Source of the DNA: a virus
DNA: 55,230 nt
IMG/VR virus record: IMGVR_UViG_3300031555_001876
Strand: one strand, 5' to 3'
Shown here: piece by piece, positions 9,700-20,270 of the stretch
How positions within the stretch are numbered: the stretch's first letter is position 1
How the letters are laid out: the number at the start of each line of letters is the position of its first letter
The notes under the pieces: generated by a model
Database searches by the model: none
The model's input: the letters and a program-made list of their open reading frames with translations, nothing else
What the model was told of the DNA's origin: nothing
Translations under genes and position numbers: made by a program

Positions 9700-9733
9700 G
9701 TCTCGTGGGTGTGTGCCCACGAGATTTTTTTAT
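9700..9733 (+). terminator. Rho-independent terminator at the end of the 7356-9602 operon.
   Basis: GC-rich hairpin ggtctcgtgggtgtgtgcccacgagat followed by a T run. Confidence 0.6.
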
Positions 9734-9959
9734 CGTTATTCGAAATTTAAAATAATTTCTCGTAATCCGAAATCTAAAAATGATTTCAAGATTGTTTTGG
9801 TCAGGCGAAAGACTTTAACACATTAAAGAAAAAAATTTTCACGAAACCCACCCCCCCCTGTATCTGAAAAAACTATACAAAAAGTATTGACAATATTTCA
9901 GAAAAAACTATGCTTCCTTTCACCTAGCACCCCTATCAATCAGCGGCGCGTCCAGGGGC

Positions 9960-10300
9960 CACACGCGCCGAATTTCAATAGTTTAAACGATTTCCCACTT
10001 TTCTTTAACGAATTAAAGTGCTAAAGTCAAACAAACGTTTTTCCCGAATCCGCACTTCATTTGACTAAATCGTTAAAGAATACACTAAAAACTAAAACAA
10101 ACGATTTTCCCGATTCCAAACTTCATTTGACTAAATCGCTAAAGAATACGCTAATTATTAAAACAAACGATTCTCCCCTTTTTCTTTATTTGACTAAATC
10201 GTTAAAGTCGCGCACGAGCCTTGAGTGCCCTAACTTTAGCGAATTAAAGTGCTACAGCAATAAATCGCTAAAGCGTTTGCAGGAAAACTTGCAAAAAAAT
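9960..10300. repeat. Iteron-like cluster of direct repeats of CATTTGACTAAATCG(C/T)TAAAG plus CGAATTAAAGTGCTA(A/C)AG. Candidate replication origin or protein-binding array.
   Basis: At least 3 copies of cttcatttgactaaatcg(t/c)taaag at 10045, 10104 and 10185. The cgaattaaagtgctaaag motif at 10008 and 10237 recurs downstream of several genes in the module. Confidence 0.5.
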
Positions 10301-10394
10301 TTTCCTAAAACCTCTTGACAAAAAGCGCACGATGTGATACAATAAAGACAGTTAAGAGAGGTACACAAAATAAAAAAAAGAAAAAAAAATAAAA

Positions 10395-10440
10395 AAAACT
10401 CTTGACAAAGTAAACACCATTTGATATAATAAAGACAGAT
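10395..10440 (+). promoter_or_regulatory. Promoter TTGACA-N17-TATAAT with an upstream A-tract. It is the second of a tandem pair; the first is at about 10312-10340.
   Basis: Sequence ctcttgacaaagtaaacaccatttgatataat. Confidence 0.55.
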
Positions 10441-10589
10441 AAAAGAGATGAGCCAAGGCGGACGAAGTAAGCGAGAGCCGAACCAAGAACGCAAGGTAAA
10501 AACAAGACAGGATGTGCCGAGAGTGAGAGGGCAAAGCCTAAGATGCACAAAGCCACTTGTTGCTCACCAAATGAAAGGAAGTAATTACT

Positions 10590-10967
10590 ATGATGCATAC
10601 TATTAACGAACTGTACAAAATCGATGGCGCAAAGTTCTACACCGCCGACTACATCATCAAGCACAACATCCCCAAGGCTAAGTCTTATAATGACACTAAT
10701 GGCTGGAGCAAGTGTTATGGTTTGGGAACAGACAGAGGCACAAAGAACATTCACACTGCTGATGGTGTAAAGGTTGTCTACACCTACGGTGAAAAGACCT
10801 ACTTTGACACAGCAGAAGAGAGAGATGCCTACAGAGTACAGCAGAACATCGCAAGGGCAGAACTTAACAAAAAGAACAAACTGCTCAAGGCTATCAACAG
10901 CCATTATCAGACTATGAGCGTTGAAGAACTTGAGGAAGTGCTAAACAACATCAAAGAGAGAGGTTGA
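10590..10967 (+). CDS. Hypothetical protein of 125 aa.
   Basis: AAAGGAAG ribosome binding site, ATG ORF, TGA stop, and a terminator hairpin at 10968-10992. A purine-rich leader of about 150 nt precedes the gene. Confidence 0.55.
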   Translation: MMHTINELYKIDGAKFYTADYIIKHNIPKAKSYNDTNGWSKCYGLGTDRGTKNIHTADGVKVVYTYGEKTYFDTAEERDAYRVQQNIARAELNKKNKLLKAINSHYQTMSVEELEEVLNNIKERG

Positions 10968-11156
10968 TAAAAACCTCTCTCTTTCTTTGTCTGCGTGAGC
11001 GGTCGCCGCACTCCTAAATTCACTACGCTAAAGTGCTAAACAAATAAAGAGAGAAAAAATATGTAAAAAAAAATAAAAAAAATTTTCCCAAAACTATTGA
11101 CAAATCCAGAAGTAAATGATATAATAAAGACACAAAGAACAAAGGAGAGATACACA

Positions 11157-11396
11157 ATGTATACTATCACCGACACAATGGCAAGACACATCGAATACAT
11201 CAAGCAGAGCGCAAAGAACTGCGCACTCTATCTGCGCAAGGACGCTATGGATATTCTGCTCGACAAGGCTTTTCACGCTTACCTTTTTGTATGCTGTGCA
11301 AACAACAAGTCTGTTGACTTCACACCTGCTGAATTTATCCAGGAGTGCAAGGCAAATGAAAACTTCTTCAATTACTATCTGGCTTACGCTGAATAA
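11157..11396 (+). CDS. Hypothetical protein of 79 aa.
   Basis: Promoter ttgacaaatccag...ataataaa, ribosome binding site AAAGGAGAG, ATG at 11157 and a terminator hairpin at 11397-11425. Confidence 0.5.
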   Translation: MYTITDTMARHIEYIKQSAKNCALYLRKDAMDILLDKAFHAYLFVCCANNKSVDFTPAEFIQECKANENFFNYYLAYAE

Positions 11397-11763
11397 GAGA
11401 GTGTGAAAAACACTCTCTTTTCTTTTGTCAGCGTGATCGGCCACCACAGCCCATACTTCACCCAATTAAAGTGCTAAACAAATAAAGAGAAGAAAAATAT
11501 GCGGAAAAATAGTTAAAAAAATTTCCTGAAACCCCTTGACAACAAGACCATCTTGTGATATACTTAATACATCCAATAGAGAAAGGAACACGAACTATGA
11601 AGAAACTAATTCTCGATATCATTACTATTATTGCGCGATCTGCTTGACTTGGGTTGCGTGGTCTTTCGTGGACATTGTCAGCGATAACTGCGACCCCAAT
11701 CCACAACACGCAAACATCAATGCTTTTGTGCTACTGGTTGATTAAGAAAGAGAGGTAAAAAAA

Positions 11764-18619: not shown

Positions 18620-19021
18620 ATGTTAACAACTGAAAAAATTAAAGCCATGGACAAAAAGGCTCAAGAAAAAGGCAAGGAATTTTTTTATTGGGGCTTTTAC
18701 ATTGATTATCTCGGCAATATTATTTGGAAGCCCGGCACAGCTGCAATTCTGTGGAGACGCAAGAAACAACATGACCGAGATTATTTGAAACCCACGTGTA
18801 ACCACCGCATGATGGACGGCACAGAATTCCATTATTTGTGGGCTATTCCTTTGGCAAAATGGACAACCCGCAAAGTCGAAGAATCTACAATCAACAGACT
18901 GAAAGCCGAAAATTTTGGCGAATACATTCTGAATGACCGTTTTGTTGATGTAAATCACGCTGAAAGCGTTGATATTATCGTCCGCAAAACCTATACAATT
19001 CCCCTTTGTTGTGCAATTTGA
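18620..19021 (+). CDS. Hypothetical protein of about 133 aa.
   Basis: Ribosome binding site AAAGGACAAG and ATG at 18620. A terminator gccccgtagaaaatggggcg lies at 19028-19050. Confidence 0.45.
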   Translation: MLTTEKIKAMDKKAQEKGKEFFYWGFYIDYLGNIIWKPGTAAILWRRKKQHDRDYLKPTCNHRMMDGTEFHYLWAIPLAKWTTRKVEESTINRLKAENFGEYILNDRFVDVNHAESVDIIVRKTYTIPLCCAI

Positions 19022-19129
19022 CGAATCCGCCCCGTAGAAAATGGGGCGGATTTTTTGTGCATTTTGCCTATTGACAAATCCAAGCAGATGTGGTATAATG
19101 GCCGGCCCTCCACGTGCGCTCGGGCCGGT

Positions 19130-19285
19130 TTTTCCATTATACCACGCCTCCCGCATTTTTGTCAAGCGTTTTTATAAAAAAAGTTGCACAAAATAAAATC
19201 CCGAATTTGTGCAACTTTTTCTTGAAAAGTTACAATTTGTAATTGACTTCTATGGCTTCTGGATGTATAATGTTAATGTAATCAA
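19130..19285 (+). repeat. Second copy of the hairpin plus promoter element described at 17615..17770.
   Basis: See 17615..17770. Confidence 0.55.
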
Positions 19286-19307
19286 AAGAGAGTTCTAGAG
19301 GATACCA

Positions 19308-19565
19308 ATGAAAATAATGTCGTTTTGGGTTGAAAGGGTGGTAAAAATGAAAGAAAAGTTGATCAGACTGTGGGAACGCAAAGAGCGCTACATCATCAAT
19401 GAATTTTTATTGGAAAACCGCAAAATACTCTTTTCTCAGGCTTTTGGTGCTTTGGAGTTCGCTATGGAAATGCTTGATAACTGGGATGAAGAGTCCAAAC
19501 TTATCGATCTGTGGGAAAATGAATGGAAAGCAAGACTGGAGGATAAAATCTATGAAGTGCGTTGA
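19308..19565 (+). CDS. Hypothetical protein. The alternative start at 19347 is equally plausible.
   Basis: ATG 19308 follows GAGGAT, and ATG 19347 follows GGGTGG. Confidence 0.4.
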   Translation: MKIMSFWVERVVKMKEKLIRLWERKERYIINEFLLENRKILFSQAFGALEFAMEMLDNWDEESKLIDLWENEWKARLEDKIYEVR

Positions 19566-19677
19566 TTGTGTAATGAGTTGGATAGACCCCGGCGAAGAAT
19601 ACCCCACTTGTCACGCAGACCCTAACTGGCCTGCACCTTGTGAATATGACGATTATGAAGAAGAGAGGGAATATTAA
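19552..19677 (+). CDS. Small Cys-rich acidic peptide of 41 aa.
   Basis: The start overlaps the previous stop in an ATGA arrangement. The sequence contains CVDC...C...C. Confidence 0.35.
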   Translation: MKCVDCVMSWIDPGEEYPTCHADPNWPAPCEYDDYEEEREY

Positions 19678-19678
19678 G

Positions 19679-19837
19679 ATGGAAATTAAATGTCCTTATT
19701 GCGGAAGTAAAGAGTACGAATGTTATGATAGAGTCGGTGATGGAACAATGCAGCCTGAAGACTTATGCGTTTGTGAGGCGTGTGATAAAGAATTTTCCAT
19801 AGTCTATGCGGTTGACTATATCAAGAAAGAGAGTTGA
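19679..19837 (+). CDS. Zinc-ribbon protein of 52 aa (CPYCG...CVCEAC).
   Basis: ATG 19679 and two CxxC pairs. A terminator gagagttgaaaaaactctctttttttt follows. Confidence 0.45.
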   Translation: MEIKCPYCGSKEYECYDRVGDGTMQPEDLCVCEACDKEFSIVYAVDYIKKES

Positions 19838-20075
19838 AAAAACTCTCTTTTTTTTATGCAAATTGACTATTGACAAATTGCGGCGACCTGTGGTATAATA
19901 AAGAGATAGGGCTTGCCTTCGGCGGGTCGGCCGCGGCAGCAAGGACCCGAATTCCCGATCGGGTAACCATATGCAAATTTTTCTGTGCATCAAGCGATAT
20001 ATGCCTTTATTCCCGTGCATCCCGAAACCTTAATCTACTTAATGGGCGTTTTACGCCCATTAAAGAAATCCACAC

Positions 20076-20270
20076 TTGACTTTTTTTAAAAAATATGATA
20101 TAATATTAAAAAAAACCTAAATTTTTGCCGCTTTTCCGCCCTTTTTGCCTAATCCAGAAGCAGAAAACTTGACTTTTCTTAAAAAATATGATATAATTAT
20201 AAAAAAAACCTAAAAATTTCGCGCAAAAACGCACTTTTCTTGACAAAATTAAAAAAAAATGGTATAATAT
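20076..20270 (+). promoter_or_regulatory. Three tandem near-identical promoters (CTTGAC-N17-TATAAT) upstream of the gene at 20306.
   Basis: The unit cttgac(t/a)tttttttaaaaaatatgatataat repeats at about 20076, 20171 and 20241. Confidence 0.6.

What the first reader, a model, noticed from the sequence alone, without database searches (positions are those of the whole stretch)
9700..20100. GC-richer module of single-gene cassettes with a stereotyped architecture
From about 10.3 to 20.0 kb, each small gene (61-250 aa) has its own near-consensus TTGACA-N17-TATAAT promoter, a conserved leader and ribosome binding site, and its own intrinsic terminator. The promoter is often preceded by a conserved GAAAAAATTTTCC(T)(G)AAACCCC element. 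The leader looks like TATAATAAAGACAGATAAAAGAG or TATACTTAATACA..ATAGAGAAAGGAA.

Coding GC is visibly higher here, about 45-50 percent, than in the rest of the window at about 30 percent. Recognisable products are limited to a HAD/NT5C nucleotidase and a DEDDh exonuclease. The others are orphan small proteins. This looks like a modular, possibly horizontally acquired, early or accessory gene set whose members are expressed independently at high level. Anti-defence or host-takeover functions are plausible.
Basis: seen in the sequence. Interest (0 to 1): 0.55.

Follow-up and report, generated by a model that had tools for sequence, protein, structure and literature searches.

The report
Phage early-gene cassette array
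This 10-kb stretch is most likely the early-gene region of a large uncultivated gut phage: about 20 small genes, each unit with its own near-perfect host-type promoter and hairpin terminator, written in host-friendly codons, while the phage's late genes use AT-rich codons and read the TAG stop codon as an amino acid.

Summary
Between 10.3 and 20.3 kb there are 24 TTGACA-N16-18-TATAAT sites with at most one mismatch. Shuffles give 0.3, and the other 45 kb holds six. They serve 19 intact small genes in 14 units (9 single-gene, 5 with 2-3 genes). About eight promoters have no ORF downstream. Coding GC is 42% against 34%, not 45-50 against 30. The difference lies at third codon positions (GC3 0.47 vs 0.25, p=7e-9).

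The upstream "GAAAAAATTTTCC.AAACCCC" element sits in register with the UP-element consensus and is not just a terminator.

Three relatives (69-81% identical exonuclease) and the cultured Enterococcus phage H1 share the architecture. Cassettes are swapped among the relatives, and one indel is bounded by a repeated terminator hairpin. [quoted passage not shown] Portal, terminase and a protein in a PHROG family annotated "sigma factor" become whole only when TAG is read as sense, whereas the module has no TAG at all. The module is therefore the standard-code, host-adapted early region. It is not a block acquired recently from elsewhere. Protein functions remain mostly unknown.

The parts
9699..9726 (+). 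Terminator hairpin that closes the upstream low-GC3 operon (7356-9602). It marks the left boundary of the module.
   Evidence: 12-bp stem, T-run. Genes to the left have GC3 of 0.21-0.35. One of them (8605-9132) carries two in-frame TAG codons under the TAG-sense reading.
9828..10314 (+). ORF-free block A. It holds a weaker promoter (9887), a GC hairpin (9945-9969), a 66-bp tandem repeat (2.8 copies) and five TAAAKYGYTAAA motifs.
10315..10967 (+). Cassette 1. Tandem promoters at 10315 and 10402, a leader of about 150 nt, and the gene 10590-10967 (125 aa, orphan). The UP-like element lies just upstream at 10293-10314.
   Evidence: The leader fold is not significant.
10953..10984 (+). Terminator of cassette 1.
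11075..11419 (+). Cassette 2. UP-like element, promoter 11097-11125, gene 11157-11396 (79 aa, orphan) and terminator 11395-11419.
11514..12212 (+). Cassette 3. UP-like element, promoter 11536-11564, a frameshifted small membrane-peptide gene (11597-11745), gene 11764-12198 (144 aa with an N-terminal hydrophobic segment) and terminator 12186-12212.
12293..12582 (+). Cassette 4. Promoter 12293-12321, gene 12356-12553 (65 aa) and terminator 12553-12582.
   Evidence: The only homologue among the relatives is in L009 (89%).
12595..12822 (+). Cassette 5. Promoter 12595-12623, gene 12655-12810 (51 aa), and hairpin 12800-12822 whose loop is the -35 hexamer of the next promoter.
   Evidence: The only homologue among the relatives is in L013 (84%).
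12807..13180 (+). Cassette 6. Promoter 12807-12835, gene 12860-13165 (101 aa), and hairpin 13156-13180 that again encloses the next -35 hexamer.
13162..13460 (+). Cassette 7. Promoter 13162-13190, gene 13225-13440 (71 aa) and terminator 13439-13460 (GCGAGGGGAAACCCTCGC). In relative L011 this same hairpin occurs twice and brackets two extra cassettes.
13489..13800 (+). Promoter with an AT-only spacer (13489-13517) followed by ORF-free block B, which holds AT palindromes, a GC hairpin and TAAAG-type motifs. The unit is conserved in position and partly in sequence in relatives.
   Evidence: (z = -4.6).
13758..14287 (+). Two-gene cassette: promoter 13801, genes 13862-14047 (61 aa) and 14065-14256 (63 aa). 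It is flanked by a perfect 25-nt inverted repeat, has lower GC3 (0.29, 0.33) and is absent from relatives.
   Evidence: (I5).
14257..14785 (+). ORF-free block C. It holds palindrome 14263-14309, a GC-rich segment, six TAAAKYGYTAAA motifs, a 59-bp tandem repeat and palindrome 14711-14774.
   Evidence: One 59-bp unit is missing in metagenome copy L007.
14786..15334 (+). Cassette. Promoter 14786-14813 (TTGCAA-N16-TATAAT), HAD/NT5C-like gene 14846-15322 (158 aa) and hairpin 15313-15334.
   Evidence: Two alleles are swapped among relatives.
15353..16225 (+). Cassette. Promoter 15353-15381, DEDDh exonuclease gene 15443-16195 (250 aa) and hairpin 16205-16225.
16243..16802 (+). Cassette. Promoter 16243-16271, a leader that starts with a stem-loop, winged-helix paralogue 1 (16350-16769, 139 aa) and hairpin 16778-16802.
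16809..17481 (+). Bicistronic unit. Promoter 16809-16837, gene 16873-17232 (119 aa, a family with more than 1200 members and no known fold), gene 17262-17447 (61 aa) and terminator 17453-17481.
17482..18054 (.). ORF-free block D. It holds four TATCGATA repeats, a GC hairpin (17573-17615), a promoter on the - strand (17649-17621), inverted repeats AAGTTGCACAA/TTGTGCAACTT, and + strand promoters 17728 and 17905 that drive structured ORF-less RNAs.
   Evidence: z = -3.6; z = -8.9.
18055..19056 (+). Bicistronic unit. Promoter 18055-18083 (UP-like element just upstream at 18033-18054), winged-helix paralogue 2 (18139-18549, 136 aa), hairpins 18550-18593, gene 18620-19021 (133 aa) and terminator 19024-19056.
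19071..19271 (.). Second copy of the convergent-promoter module. It holds + promoter 19071-19099, hairpin plus T-run 19100-19133, - promoter 19165-19136, an operator-like inverted repeat and + promoter 19243-19271.
   Evidence: (alignment A3 with five further copies from relatives).
19308..19855 (+). Tricistronic unit. Genes 19308-19565 (85 aa), 19552-19677 (41 aa, Cys-rich) and 19679-19837 (52 aa, zinc-ribbon-like), with terminator 19826-19855.
19870..20075 (+). Promoter 19870-19899 followed by an ORF-free element. About 70 nt of it are nearly invariant in four relatives whose neighbouring protein is only 50-63% identical.
20076..20686 (+). Three tandem promoters with AT-only spacers (20076, 20169, 20240) and gene 20306-20686 (126 aa, GC3 0.43). 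This is the right edge of the module.

Best explanation
WHAT IT IS. The region from about 9.7 to 20.7 kb is the early-gene region of a large virulent phage. The phage is uncultivated, AT-rich and recodes TAG. It is distantly related to phAss-1 and to Enterococcus phage H1, so its host is most likely a Bacillota (Firmicutes) bacterium of an animal gut.

HOW IT WORKS (inferred).
- On entry, the host housekeeping RNA polymerase (sigma-A/sigma-70 type) fires from about 22 near-consensus promoters. These are reinforced by TGn extended -10 motifs and by A/T-tract UP-like elements.
- Each promoter drives a short unit: a purine-rich unstructured leader, a strong Shine-Dalgarno site, 1-3 small ORFs and a GC hairpin terminator. 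In some units the hairpin loop is the -35 hexamer of the next promoter.
- The genes avoid TAG entirely. They also avoid the A-ending codons (TTA, ATA, CCA, CAA) that dominate the phage's late genes and are read by phage-encoded tRNAs. They can therefore be translated at once by an unmodified host.
- Late genes need the phage's own tRNAs and a TAG suppressor. These include portal, terminase and a protein in a PHROG family annotated 'sigma factor'.

HOW IT EVOLVES. The repeated promoter/terminator units also act as recombination sites. Cassettes are gained, lost and swapped there between related phages, as described for the PeSL elements of T4-like phages.

SHOWN: the sequence architecture, its statistics, its conservation, the cassette mosaic, the codon split and the TAG split.
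INFERRED: early timing, use of host sigma-A, terminator function, the translational reason for GC3, and the functions of the products.
For: PROMOTER DENSITY. 24 sites against 0.3 expected.

PROMOTER CONSENSUS. Over 90 promoters from the window and three relatives the consensus is aaAaaA..t.TTGACAAat...T.TG.TATAAT. It includes the TRTG -16 motif, which from my own knowledge is typical of Gram-positive promoters.

UP-ELEMENT MATCH. The mean is 7.8 of 15 against 5.4 for controls (p=1e-4), and the best promoters score 13/15 in exact register. The UP concept is cited from PMC4390567.

CONSERVATION. The same architecture is present in L009, L011 and L013 (20-35 strict promoters per 15 kb) and in cultured Enterococcus phage H1, next to its HAD and exonuclease genes.

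HAIRPINS AROUND THE -35 HEXAMER. 26 of 113 promoters have one, against 1.75% of random positions, and the stems covary.

CASSETTE MOSAIC. Patchy sharing of cassettes. One indel is bounded by a duplicated terminator. Allele swaps have junctions in the promoter regions.

CODON SPLIT. GC3 is 0.47 vs 0.25. TTA is 5% of Leu codons in the module against 68-78% in the flanking sets. ATA is 6% vs 26-27%, CCA 6% vs 26-39% and CAA 40% vs 89-93%. The window encodes tRNAs Leu-taa, Ile-tat, Pro-tgg, Gln-ttg and Arg-tct.

TAG SPLIT. Module stops are TGA x10, TAA x9 and TAG x0. Read with TAG as sense, 1226-7288(-) gives portal (6e-86), terminase large subunit, phrog_3314 and a 'sigma factor' PHROG (4e-52), with 3-7 in-frame TAG codons each.

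LITERATURE. The model of standard-code early genes in recoded phages is in bioRxiv 10.1101/2021.08.26.457843. Early/late codon differences and late-gene reliance on phage tRNAs are in PMC12482277. PeSL is described in PMC2839356 and PMC4122927. The SPO1 host-takeover module is described in PMC6873191.
Against: - There are no expression data, and the host is unknown. 'Early' and 'sigma-A dependent' are therefore inferences from sequence alone.
- No CTA-anticodon suppressor tRNA lies in the window.
- The 'sigma factor' label rests only on a PHROG annotation. Pfam finds no sigma domain.
- About 8 strong promoters have no ORF, and three ORF-free repeat blocks make up roughly a quarter of the region. 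The region is therefore more than a gene-expression array.
- Enterococcus phage H1 has the architecture without any GC excess, so the GC3 offset is not intrinsic to the design.
- Several predicted terminators lack a good T-run.
Confidence: 0.8

Rival explanations
1. The module is a recently acquired foreign block from a GC-richer phage or from the host. Its higher GC would be un-ameliorated donor composition rather than adaptation.
For: GC is higher than in the flanks. GC-richer relatives exist: L015 has 0.43-0.50 GC over nearly all of 20 kb and encodes a 54%-identical exonuclease. Individual cassettes are demonstrably exchanged.
Against: - The excess is confined to third codon positions. GC2 is equal.
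- The same module-versus-flank offset is present in L009 and L013, whose core proteins are only 69-81% identical to the window's. The offset is therefore old and maintained.
- Core synteny (HAD - exonuclease - further small genes) extends to Enterococcus phage H1.
- The GC boundary coincides with the boundary between TAG-free and TAG-sense genes. That fits an expression class better than a foreign origin.
Confidence: 0.1
2. The region is mainly a regulatory or replication control region: an origin, an RNA polymerase or protein sink, or an RNA-based switch. On this view the protein cassettes are secondary. The ORF-less strong promoters, the convergent promoter pairs around GC hairpins and the arrays of short motifs would be the functional core. 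The motifs might be bound by the two winged-helix paralogues.
For: - Motif TAAAKYGYTAAA occurs 17 times against 0.3 expected, and only within 10.0-17.6 kb.
- TTGTGCAWTTTGACGAA occurs 7 times against 0.03 expected, as perfect palindromes.
- The convergent-promoter/hairpin module is duplicated in the window and conserved in L009, L011 (three copies) and L013. Its - strand promoter segment matches phAss-1 at 84%.
- The hairpin stems differ in sequence between copies, and each of the five copies folded separately forms a 5' GC hairpin (z = -3 to -9).
- About 70 nt at 19.9-20.0 kb are nearly invariant across relatives.
- Two winged-helix proteins are encoded in the module.
Against: - Most promoters are followed at a fixed short distance by a strong ribosome binding site and an ORF that is conserved at protein level.
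- The motif copy number is far lower in relatives (1-5).
- The TATCGATA repeats are specific to this lineage.
- No Rfam family matches.
- Nothing links the winged-helix proteins to the motifs except proximity.
- This reading complements the main explanation rather than excluding it.
Confidence: 0.25
3. The consensus promoters are read by a phage-encoded sigma factor or a modified polymerase, not by the host housekeeping holoenzyme. The module would then be a middle or late class.
For: A PHROG family annotated 'sigma factor' lies next to the region at 6173-7288(-). A second promoter class with AT-only spacers occurs inside and outside the module.
Against: - The promoters match the housekeeping consensus at 11-12 of 12 positions, with TGn and UP-like elements. 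From my own knowledge, phage sigma factors normally recognise different motifs.
- The candidate sigma gene contains in-frame TAG codons, and under the recoding model it cannot be made before the code switch. The module is TAG-free and uses codons that do not need the phage tRNAs.
Confidence: 0.05

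Closest known systems
PeSL (promoter-early stem-loop) cassettes in the hyperplastic regions of T4-like phages (Arbiol et al. 2010, PMC2839356; Comeau et al. 2014, PMC4122927)
   Same: - A composite unit of a consensus sigma-70 promoter, an AT-rich tract upstream of -35 and a GGGG...CCCC stem-loop terminator.
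- The units flank small orphan genes.
- The repeated units act as crossover points for insertion, deletion and replacement between related phages. Here one indel is bounded by two copies of the same terminator, and there are allele swaps.
   Different: - The phage lineage is unrelated, and the host is probably Gram-positive.
- Promoters carry the TRTG/TGn extended -10.
- In about a quarter of the units the -35 hexamer sits inside the hairpin loop, giving a more compact fusion.
- All cassettes lie in one contiguous 10-kb array rather than in several hyperplastic regions within the window.
- Mini-circle formation could not be tested.
- The array also differs from the rest of the genome in synonymous codon usage and in genetic code.
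[quoted passage not shown] 1998, as described in PMC6873191)
   Same: - About 20-26 mostly small early genes in roughly 10-12 kb.
- They are organised in short operons with promoters and ribosome binding sites typical of highly expressed genes.
- The phage is large and virulent and infects a Firmicute.
   Different: - No protein homology to SPO1 gp37-60 was detected.
- Location in a terminal redundancy cannot be tested from this window.
- No host-shutoff activity is known for any product.
- The module includes enzymes (HAD, DEDDh exonuclease) and DNA-binding proteins.
Standard-code-compatible early genes of stop-codon-recoded phages (Borges et al., bioRxiv 10.1101/2021.08.26.457843; phAss-1 group, PMC10607447)
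   Same: In-frame TAG codons are confined to structural and late genes (portal, terminase). A block of genes free of the recoded codon is placed to be expressed before the code switch.
   Different: - Here the TAG-free block is also set apart by a large GC3 and synonymous-codon shift, and by its dense single-cassette promoter architecture.
- The suppressor tRNA was not found in this window.
- The amino acid encoded by TAG was assumed to be Gln by analogy with phAss-1 and was not shown.
UP elements of strong bacterial promoters (Estrem et al. 1998/1999, as cited in PMC4390567)
   Same: A-tract, T-tract and A-tract lie at -57 to -40 in register with the consensus nnAAAWWTWTTTTnnAAAAnnn, which I quote from memory. 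Up to 13 of 15 specified positions match.
   Different: - Only about 9 of 21 promoters score above the 95th percentile of controls.
- Binding by the alpha-subunit C-terminal domain is untested.
- In two copies the element can also fold as a hairpin at the 3' end of an upstream ORF-less RNA.

Membership tests
PeSL-type promoter/terminator cassettes | Strong promoter identical or nearly identical to the sigma-70 consensus | tested here: met
   24 sites with at most 1 mismatch, against 0.3 expected.
PeSL-type promoter/terminator cassettes | [quoted passage not shown] | tested here: met
   A+T is 70-90% at -60 to -38 and there is an A-tract at -45 to -40.
PeSL-type promoter/terminator cassettes | Adjacent stable stem-loop, often polyG...polyC, that acts as a terminator | tested here: met
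   Hairpins lie at 12553-12582, 12800-12822, 13156-13180, 13439-13460, 16205-16225, 16778-16802 and elsewhere. Termination activity itself is not testable here.
PeSL-type promoter/terminator cassettes | Preferential association with small orphan genes in a variable region | tested here: met
   Of the 19 module genes, 14 have no significant family match or recognisable fold. Cassette content varies among relatives.
PeSL-type promoter/terminator cassettes | Indels and replacements between related genomes with junctions in the repeated units | tested here: met
   Two cassettes of L011 are bracketed by two copies of the terminator that is single in the window. The identity profile switches in the promoter regions that flank the HAD gene.
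PeSL-type promoter/terminator cassettes | Formation of excised mini-circles; membership of the T4-like lineage | not testable with these tools
   Mini-circles need PCR on phage DNA. The lineage is clearly not T4-like: the nearest cultured relatives are Enterococcus phages, at 39% identity for the exonuclease. This is therefore an analogue and not the same sequence family.
SPO1-type host-takeover module | Cluster of small early genes with strong sigma-A promoters and strong ribosome binding sites | tested here: met
   (sequence level only).
SPO1-type host-takeover module | Homology to SPO1 gp37-60 or to another characterised host-shutoff protein | tested here: not met
   There are no such matches in Pfam or PHROGs. 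The fold search of the 119-aa core protein gave nothing.
SPO1-type host-takeover module | Location in the terminal redundancy; shutoff of host synthesis | not testable with these tools
UP element | A/T tracts at -59 to -38 that match the selected consensus in register | tested here: met
   Scores are 13/15 (10315, 13801), 12 (17905), 11 (11097) and 10 (three promoters). The mean is 7.8 against 5.4 for controls, p=1e-4. The feature is met for about 9 of 21 promoters.
UP element | Binding of the alpha-subunit C-terminal domain and stimulation of transcription | not testable with these tools
   This needs footprinting or reporter assays.
DEDDh 3'-5' exonuclease (gene 15443-16195) | Exo I DxE, Exo II NxxxD and Exo III Hx4D residues conserved | tested here: met
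   D14, E16, N115, D119, H197 and D202 are invariant in 20 homologues down to 38% identity. PHROG 'DNA polymerase exonuclease subunit' matches at 6e-4. There is no Pfam or PDB sequence hit.
HAD / NT5C-type nucleotidase (gene 14846-15322) | HAD motif I DxDxT and motif IV DD; profile match | tested here: inconclusive
   FDMDGT and LIDDN are read directly in the translation. PHROG 5'-3' deoxyribonucleotidase matches at 2e-7. The orthologue in L009 carries a 'faint' Pfam NT5C hit. Pfam finds nothing for the window protein itself.
TAG-recoded (code 15-like) phage | Conserved genes are interrupted by in-frame TAG, and homology runs across the TAG positions | tested here: met
   Portal covers residues 5-463 of 465 (6e-86). 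Terminase large subunit and the 'sigma factor' PHROG span several TAG codons.
TAG-recoded (code 15-like) phage | Phage-encoded suppressor tRNA with anticodon CTA | tested here: not met
   None of the 14 tRNAs in the window has it. It may lie elsewhere in the genome, and only 55 kb is in hand.
Winged-helix DNA-binding proteins (16350-16769, 18139-18549) | Three-helix bundle plus beta-hairpin wing | tested here: met
   The AlphaFold2 model has pLDDT 89. The top Foldseek PDB hits are dominated by winged-helix proteins or domains (FoxP3, Fur/PerR, SmtB, NolR), but E is only about 5e-3. Pfam MarR_2 matches weakly in 4 of 8 members. DNA binding is untested.

The most novel reading that the evidence does not exclude
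The early module may be one arm of a three-layer temporal programme in which transcription, synonymous codon choice and the genetic code are coupled.

- Host sigma-A promoters drive TAG-free genes with host-like codons.
- The phage's own putative sigma factor, portal and terminase can be translated only after phage tRNAs, including a TAG suppressor, accumulate.

Within the module there are also conserved ORF-less units. They consist of strong promoters that fire into covarying GC hairpins, face-to-face promoter pairs that would yield complementary short RNAs, and arrays of 12-17-nt motifs beside two winged-helix genes. On this reading they form a previously undescribed regulatory or decoy system that times the early-to-late switch, or an origin of replication.
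Probability: 0.2. Interest if true: 0.7.

Novelty: new variant of a known kind. Interest (0 to 1): 0.5.

Why it matters
It extends the PeSL idea, that repeated promoter-terminator units both express and shuffle small orphan genes, from T4-like coliphages to an unrelated, uncultivated clade of gut phages. That clade includes cultured Enterococcus phages and the stop-codon-recoded phAss-1 group.

It also gives a very clear case of one genome written in two dialects. The early genes are TAG-free and have GC3 of 0.47. The late genes use TAG as a sense codon, have GC3 of about 0.15-0.25, and use TTA for about 70-80% of their Leu codons. This makes the model of translation gating by phage tRNAs and a suppressor directly testable, because cultured relatives exist.

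In practice, the roughly 90 near-identical strong promoter/leader units across the relatives are a ready-made parts list for expression in Bacillota. The cassettes are a concentrated pool of candidate host-takeover or anti-defence proteins.

Tried and rejected
SEARCHES THAT FOUND NOTHING USEFUL
- Megablast of the region against cultured phages gave no match.
- A viral-contig scan with peptides from the exonuclease gave no match.
- Rfam gave only tRNAs outside the region at gathering threshold. The E-value scan returned sub-threshold hairpin look-alikes only.
- PDB sequence searches for the exonuclease, the HAD protein, the winged-helix profile and the 119-aa family gave nothing significant.
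- The fold search of the 119-aa core protein (pLDDT 81, pTM 0.37) gave no meaningful match.

IDEAS TESTED AND DROPPED
- I tested whether the long leader of cassette 1 (10440-10589) is a structured riboswitch-like RNA. The fold is no better than shuffles (z = -0.24).
- I tested whether the motif ATTTGACTAAAKCGYTAAA marks a host element or a CRISPR repeat. It gave 26 single hits in 596 Gb of genomes, which is about chance by my estimate. The four Ruminococcus hits turned out to be an ordinary bacterial promoter. There were none in viral contigs. No host inference was possible.
- I considered that the 66- and 59-bp tandem repeats might be CRISPR-like arrays. I rejected this because whole units repeat and there are no unique spacers.
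- An apparent difference in the left flank of L002 was only a difference in gene calling. The DNA is 99.99% identical to the window.

FAILED OR PARTIAL STEPS
- The RNAalifold alignment of the 17757-17906 transcript with relatives failed because the sequences are too divergent.
- I tried to reach the 185-kb contig that carries the same genes. Only short contigs were returned.

COORDINATE ERRORS OF MY OWN
- Two genes were first entered one base off (11158 and 17261). Searches are affected for those two genes only. This was corrected.

Full report
1. WHAT THE SEQUENCE SHOWS

The window is AT-rich, about 0.24-0.41 GC per kb. The stretch from 10 to 20 kb reads 0.36-0.43.

I scanned the whole window for TTGACA-N16-18-TATAAT with at most one mismatch and found 30 sites. 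Of these, 24 lie between 10315 and 20240: 22 on the + strand and 2 on the - strand. Dinucleotide-preserving shuffles of the same 10 kb give a mean of 0.3 and never more than 3. Seventeen of the 22 + strand sites also carry the TGn extended -10.

The repeat finder recovered the stereotyped units independently of my scan (families D1-D5, D8, D10, D15). These are promoter plus leader (TATAAT-AAAGACAGATAAAAGA and TATACT-TAATACA..AATAGAGAAAGGAA) and an 18-nt translation-start unit (GAAAGGAATTGATACTATG) used by three genes.

Reading the sequence with verified translations gives 19 intact genes of 41-250 aa in 14 units. Nine units are monocistronic and five hold two or three genes. One further small gene is frameshifted.

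I read a GC-rich hairpin at the end of every unit except the one ending at 14256, which is followed by an AT-rich palindrome. About half of the hairpins are followed by a good T-run.

However, 'each gene has its own promoter and terminator' holds for about two thirds of the units. About eight strong promoters have no ORF behind them.

2. THE UPSTREAM ELEMENT

The pattern AAATTTYCNNRAAACCCCTTGACAA has four matches with at most three mismatches, against 0.00 expected. Looser copies sit at 11075 and 9828.

I aligned 21 window promoters, and then 90 promoters from the window plus three relatives. This gave the consensus aaaa..aaaa.tt.aaAaaA..t.TTGACAAat.........T.TG.TATAAT. The A-tract, T-tract and A-tract fall at -57 to -40. 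That is the register of the UP-element consensus nnAAAWWTWTTTTnnAAAAnnn (Estrem et al. 1998; the consensus is quoted from my memory, and the concept and subsite structure are as described in PMC4390567).

The match score averages 7.8 of 15 against 5.4 for random positions in the same region (p=1e-4). The top scores are 13/15 at promoters 10315 and 13801.

The element at 10293-10314 has no gene upstream, so it is not simply a terminator remnant. In two copies (17883 and 18033) it can also pair as a small hairpin at the 3' end of an ORF-less transcript.

The T.TG motif equals the TRTG '-16 region' that is typical of Gram-positive promoters (my own knowledge: Voskuil and Chambliss 1998). Together with the strong AGGAG-type ribosome binding sites, this points to a Bacillota host.

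3. COMPOSITION AND CODONS

With corrected coordinates, coding GC is 0.423 in the 19 module genes and 0.341 in 54 other genes (p=7.5e-7). The difference is at third positions: GC3 is 0.469 vs 0.252 (p=6.6e-9). GC2 is equal and GC1 is barely different.

Codon tables differ sharply (chi-square 660, 41 df):
- TTA is 5% of Leu codons in the module, against 68-78% in the left-hand and right-hand gene sets.
- ATA is 6% vs 26-27%.
- CCA is 6% vs 26-39%.
- CAA is 40% vs 89-93%.
- CTG is 31% vs 0-2%.
- CCC is 49% vs 5%.

The window carries 14 tRNA genes at 43-50.5 kb. They include Leu-taa, Ile-tat, Pro-tgg, Gln-ttg, Arg-tct, Val-tac and Glu-ttc. These read exactly the codons that the module avoids.

Early/late codon differences and late-gene reliance on phage tRNAs are an established theme (PMC12482277 and its reference to Mioduser et al. 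2017).

4. RELATIVES

The exonuclease protein is encoded identically on more than 20 metagenome contigs. All of them are the same phage at 99.7% identity or more.

Its homologues led to three related loci whose exonucleases are 81%, 76% and 69% identical: L009, L011/L012 and L013. All three show the same design:
- 20-35 strict promoters per 15 kb, nearly all on one strand.
- The same leaders.
- The same GC step, 0.38-0.45 inside against 0.22-0.33 outside.
- Module GC3 of 0.42-0.45 against 0.12-0.30 for flanking genes.

The nearest cultured relatives are Enterococcus phages H1, EF1, EF5 and VRE9, of about 134-142 kb and unclassified within Caudoviricetes. In H1 an annotated HAD hydrolase and an exodeoxyribonuclease sit in an array of small genes with the same promoter/hairpin units, but without a GC excess.

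Across all these loci, 26 of 113 promoters have a GC-rich stem of 4 bp or more that closes around the -35 hexamer. The figure for random positions is 1.75%. The stems differ in sequence but stay complementary: GGGGC/GCCCC, GGGAC/GTCCC, AAGAG/CTCTT. In the window this is seen at 12800-12822 and 13156-13180.

5. CASSETTE TURNOVER

An all-against-all protein comparison shows a conserved core:
- the 144-aa membrane protein;
- the HAD-like protein;
- the exonuclease;
- winged-helix paralogue 1;
- the 119-aa protein;
- winged-helix paralogue 2;
- the 126-aa protein.

A 61-aa gene that follows the 119-aa gene is conserved among L009, L011 and L013. The window's gene at that position could not be compared, because it was translated out of frame in that run.

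This core is interleaved with cassettes shared patchily. The gene at 12356 is found only in L009 (89%), 12655 only in L013 (84%), 13225 only in L011 (87%) and 18620 only in L011 (92%). Several genes are unique to one locus.

The window's terminator GCGAGGGGAAACCCTCGC (13439-13460) occurs twice in L011. There it brackets two extra cassettes (46 and 57 aa) that the window lacks. In L013 the same hairpin follows yet another gene. This is the signature of recombination between repeated promoter/terminator units.

The HAD gene exists as two alleles. The window and L011 are 87% identical, L009 and L013 are 88% identical, and the two pairs are about 40% identical to each other. The neighbouring exonuclease is 69-81% identical throughout. 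The identity profile switches in the flanking promoter regions. L011 and L013 become 98-100% identical from the 3' end of the exonuclease gene onward.

6. COMPARISON WITH KNOWN SYSTEMS

The closest described system is the PeSL (promoter-early stem-loop) of T4-like phages. It has consensus sigma-70 promoters with an AT-rich upstream tract and a GGGG...CCCC stem-loop terminator. These units flank ORFans in hyperplastic regions and mediate modular shuffling (PMC2839356, PMC4122927). Every sequence-level criterion is met here. The lineage and the host type differ, mini-circles cannot be tested, and the -35-in-loop fusion is a compact variant.

The SPO1 host-takeover module matches in organisation: 26 mostly small early genes with promoters and ribosome binding sites typical of highly expressed genes (PMC6873191). 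It does not match in protein content, because no homology was found.

7. THE PRODUCTS

The exonuclease keeps all DEDDh residues across 20 homologues.

The HAD call rests on motifs and a weak PHROG match.

The paralogues at 16350 and 18139 (60% identical; two copies in every relative) give a confident AlphaFold2 model with pLDDT 89. The model has a C-terminal winged helix. The top structural hits are dominated by winged-helix proteins or domains, at modest E-values.

The 119-aa core protein belongs to a family of more than 1200 metagenomic members with no recognisable fold.

The 52-aa protein is zinc-ribbon-like. The others are orphans. Host-takeover or anti-defence roles therefore remain conjecture.

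8. FOLLOWING THE EVIDENCE OUTSIDE THE COORDINATES: THE GENETIC CODE

A short match of the - strand promoter to phage phAss-1 led to the paper showing that phAss-1 reads TAG as Gln in 28% of its ORFs and is predicted to infect Clostridia (PMC10607447).

I reran ORF finding with TAG as a sense codon. The fragmented - strand block 1226-7288 turned into four long ORFs:
- portal protein (PHROG 6e-86 over residues 5-463);
- terminase large subunit;
- phrog_3314, of unknown function;
- a PHROG family annotated 'sigma factor' (4e-52).

Each carries 3-7 in-frame TAG codons that are spanned by the profile matches. Pfam does not confirm a sigma domain.

In-frame TAG codons also occur in 22068-22703(-) and in the GIY-YIG-like gene at 33240-33959.

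The 19 module genes stop with TGA (10) or TAA (9), never with TAG, and contain no TAG. The 23-43 kb block is also essentially TAG-free and has intermediate GC3.

No CTA-anticodon tRNA is in the window, so that link is still missing.

9. WHAT REMAINS UNEXPLAINED INSIDE THE REGION

Roughly a quarter of the region is ORF-free and highly patterned.
- TAAAKYGYTAAA occurs 17 times against 0.3 expected, and only within 10.0-17.6 kb. Relatives have 1-5 copies.
- TTGTGCAWTTTGACGAA occurs 7 times against 0.03 expected, as perfect palindromes. It also forms a perfect 25-nt inverted repeat that brackets the lineage-specific two-gene cassette at 13758-14287.
- A module of about 230 bp is present twice in the window and five times in the relatives. 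It contains a + promoter, a GC hairpin whose stem differs in sequence between copies, a highly conserved promoter on the opposite strand, an operator-like inverted repeat and a further + promoter.
- The - strand RNAs would be 105-190 nt, with a 5' GC hairpin and a 3' terminator.
- About 70 nt at 19.9-20.0 kb are nearly invariant across relatives whose neighbouring protein is only 50-63% identical.
- None of these match Rfam.

They may be regulatory RNAs, operator arrays for the winged-helix proteins, insulators or an origin. I could not discriminate between these.

10. VERDICT

This is a real, statistically overwhelming and evolutionarily conserved early-gene cassette array. It belongs to a known kind, combining PeSL-like organisation with a SPO1-like layout. 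It occurs in a new lineage and has added features. These are the -35-in-loop fusions, a strong synonymous-codon and genetic-code partition from the late genes, and unexplained conserved non-coding units.

The block-transfer reading is not supported.

Confidence in the main explanation is about 0.8. Interest is moderate, at 0.5.

Noticed in passing
window 1226-7288 (- strand); also 22068-22703 (-), 33240-33959 (+), 8605-9132 (+): The phage uses TAG as a sense codon. Read that way, the fragmented ORFs fuse into portal (1226-2845), terminase large subunit (3220-4968), a phrog_3314 protein (4962-6188) and a 'sigma factor' PHROG protein (6173-7288). Each has 3-7 in-frame TAG codons. No CTA-anticodon suppressor tRNA lies in the window.
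   Followed up: yes
window 6173-7288 (- strand), with promoter at 7285-7257: The putative phage sigma factor (phrog_5767, 4e-52; no Pfam sigma domain) is transcribed divergently from the early side and itself contains in-frame TAG codons. Its synthesis would depend on the code switch.
   Followed up: partly
window 17573-17760 and 19071-19275; L009 13545-13790; L011 9270-9500, 11490-11720, 12965-13200; L013 10960-11200; phAss-1 OQ749652 134833-134877: A conserved module of about 230 bp holds face-to-face promoters around a GC hairpin whose stem differs in sequence between copies, an AAGTTGCACAA/TTGTGCAACTT inverted repeat and a third promoter. It would yield a + strand RNA of about 35 nt and a complementary - strand RNA of 105-190 nt. 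Its function is unknown.
   Followed up: partly
window 10014-17562 (17 sites): The motif TAAAKYGYTAAA is confined to the module (0.3 expected). It often sits inside ACTTT...AAAGT palindromes and in 66- and 59-bp tandem repeats. Relatives have only 1-5 copies. It may be a protein-binding site or a small hairpin.
   Followed up: partly
window 13758-13782 / 14263-14287; also 14263-14309 and 14711-14774: A perfect 25-nt inverted repeat of TTGTGCATTTTGACGAA brackets a two-gene cassette with lower GC3 that relatives lack. The layout looks like an inserted unit with terminal inverted repeats. The same motif forms two further palindromes.
   Followed up: partly
window 19900-20035; L009 15820-15952; L011 14060-14232; L013 13324-13496: An ORF-free element lies behind a consensus promoter. 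About 70 nt (CCCGATCGGG..CATATGCAAATTTTTCTGTGCATC..CCCGAAAC) are nearly invariant, which is more conserved than the neighbouring proteins.
   Followed up: partly
window 11597-11745: The gene for a 49-aa membrane peptide, intact in L009 and L011 and fused to a longer ORF in L013, is split by a frameshift after ATTATT. The same frameshift is present in all five metagenome copies that I checked. It is either a pseudogene or a programmed shift.
   Followed up: partly
window 7294, 13489, 20076, 20169, 20240, 34207, 38699, 46872: A second promoter class has an almost pure A/T spacer (TTGACT-tttttaaaaaatatga-TATAAT). It occurs at the edges of the module and elsewhere in the genome and is conserved in relatives. 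It may be a separate regulatory class.
   Followed up: no
window 43257-50549: A cluster of 14 tRNA genes mostly reads A-ending codons. ARAGORN calls one tRNA-Ser with the unusual anticodon ACT.
   Followed up: partly
window 17487-17555: Four TATCGATA palindromes lie in an AT-rich stretch just downstream of the - strand promoter and hairpin. The pattern looks like an origin but is absent from relatives.
   Followed up: partly
window 14446-14568 and 20820-20904; L007, L005: Tandem-repeat copy number varies between otherwise 99.7-100% identical metagenome copies. One 59-bp unit is missing in L007, and L005 has an indel of about 21 bp. I did not map the L005 indel; a 21-bp tandem repeat lies within the aligned span.
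   Followed up: partly
window 3220-4968 (-): PHROG families 15503 and 24618, both labelled 'unknown function', match the N- and C-terminal halves of this terminase. They look like fragments created when recoded phages are annotated with the standard code.
   Followed up: no
window 34344-36621 and 47838-48974: Auxiliary metabolism genes: two ribose-phosphate pyrophosphokinase paralogues, which also match a PHROG family annotated nicotinamide phosphoribosyltransferase more weakly, and a radical SAM protein.
   Followed up: no
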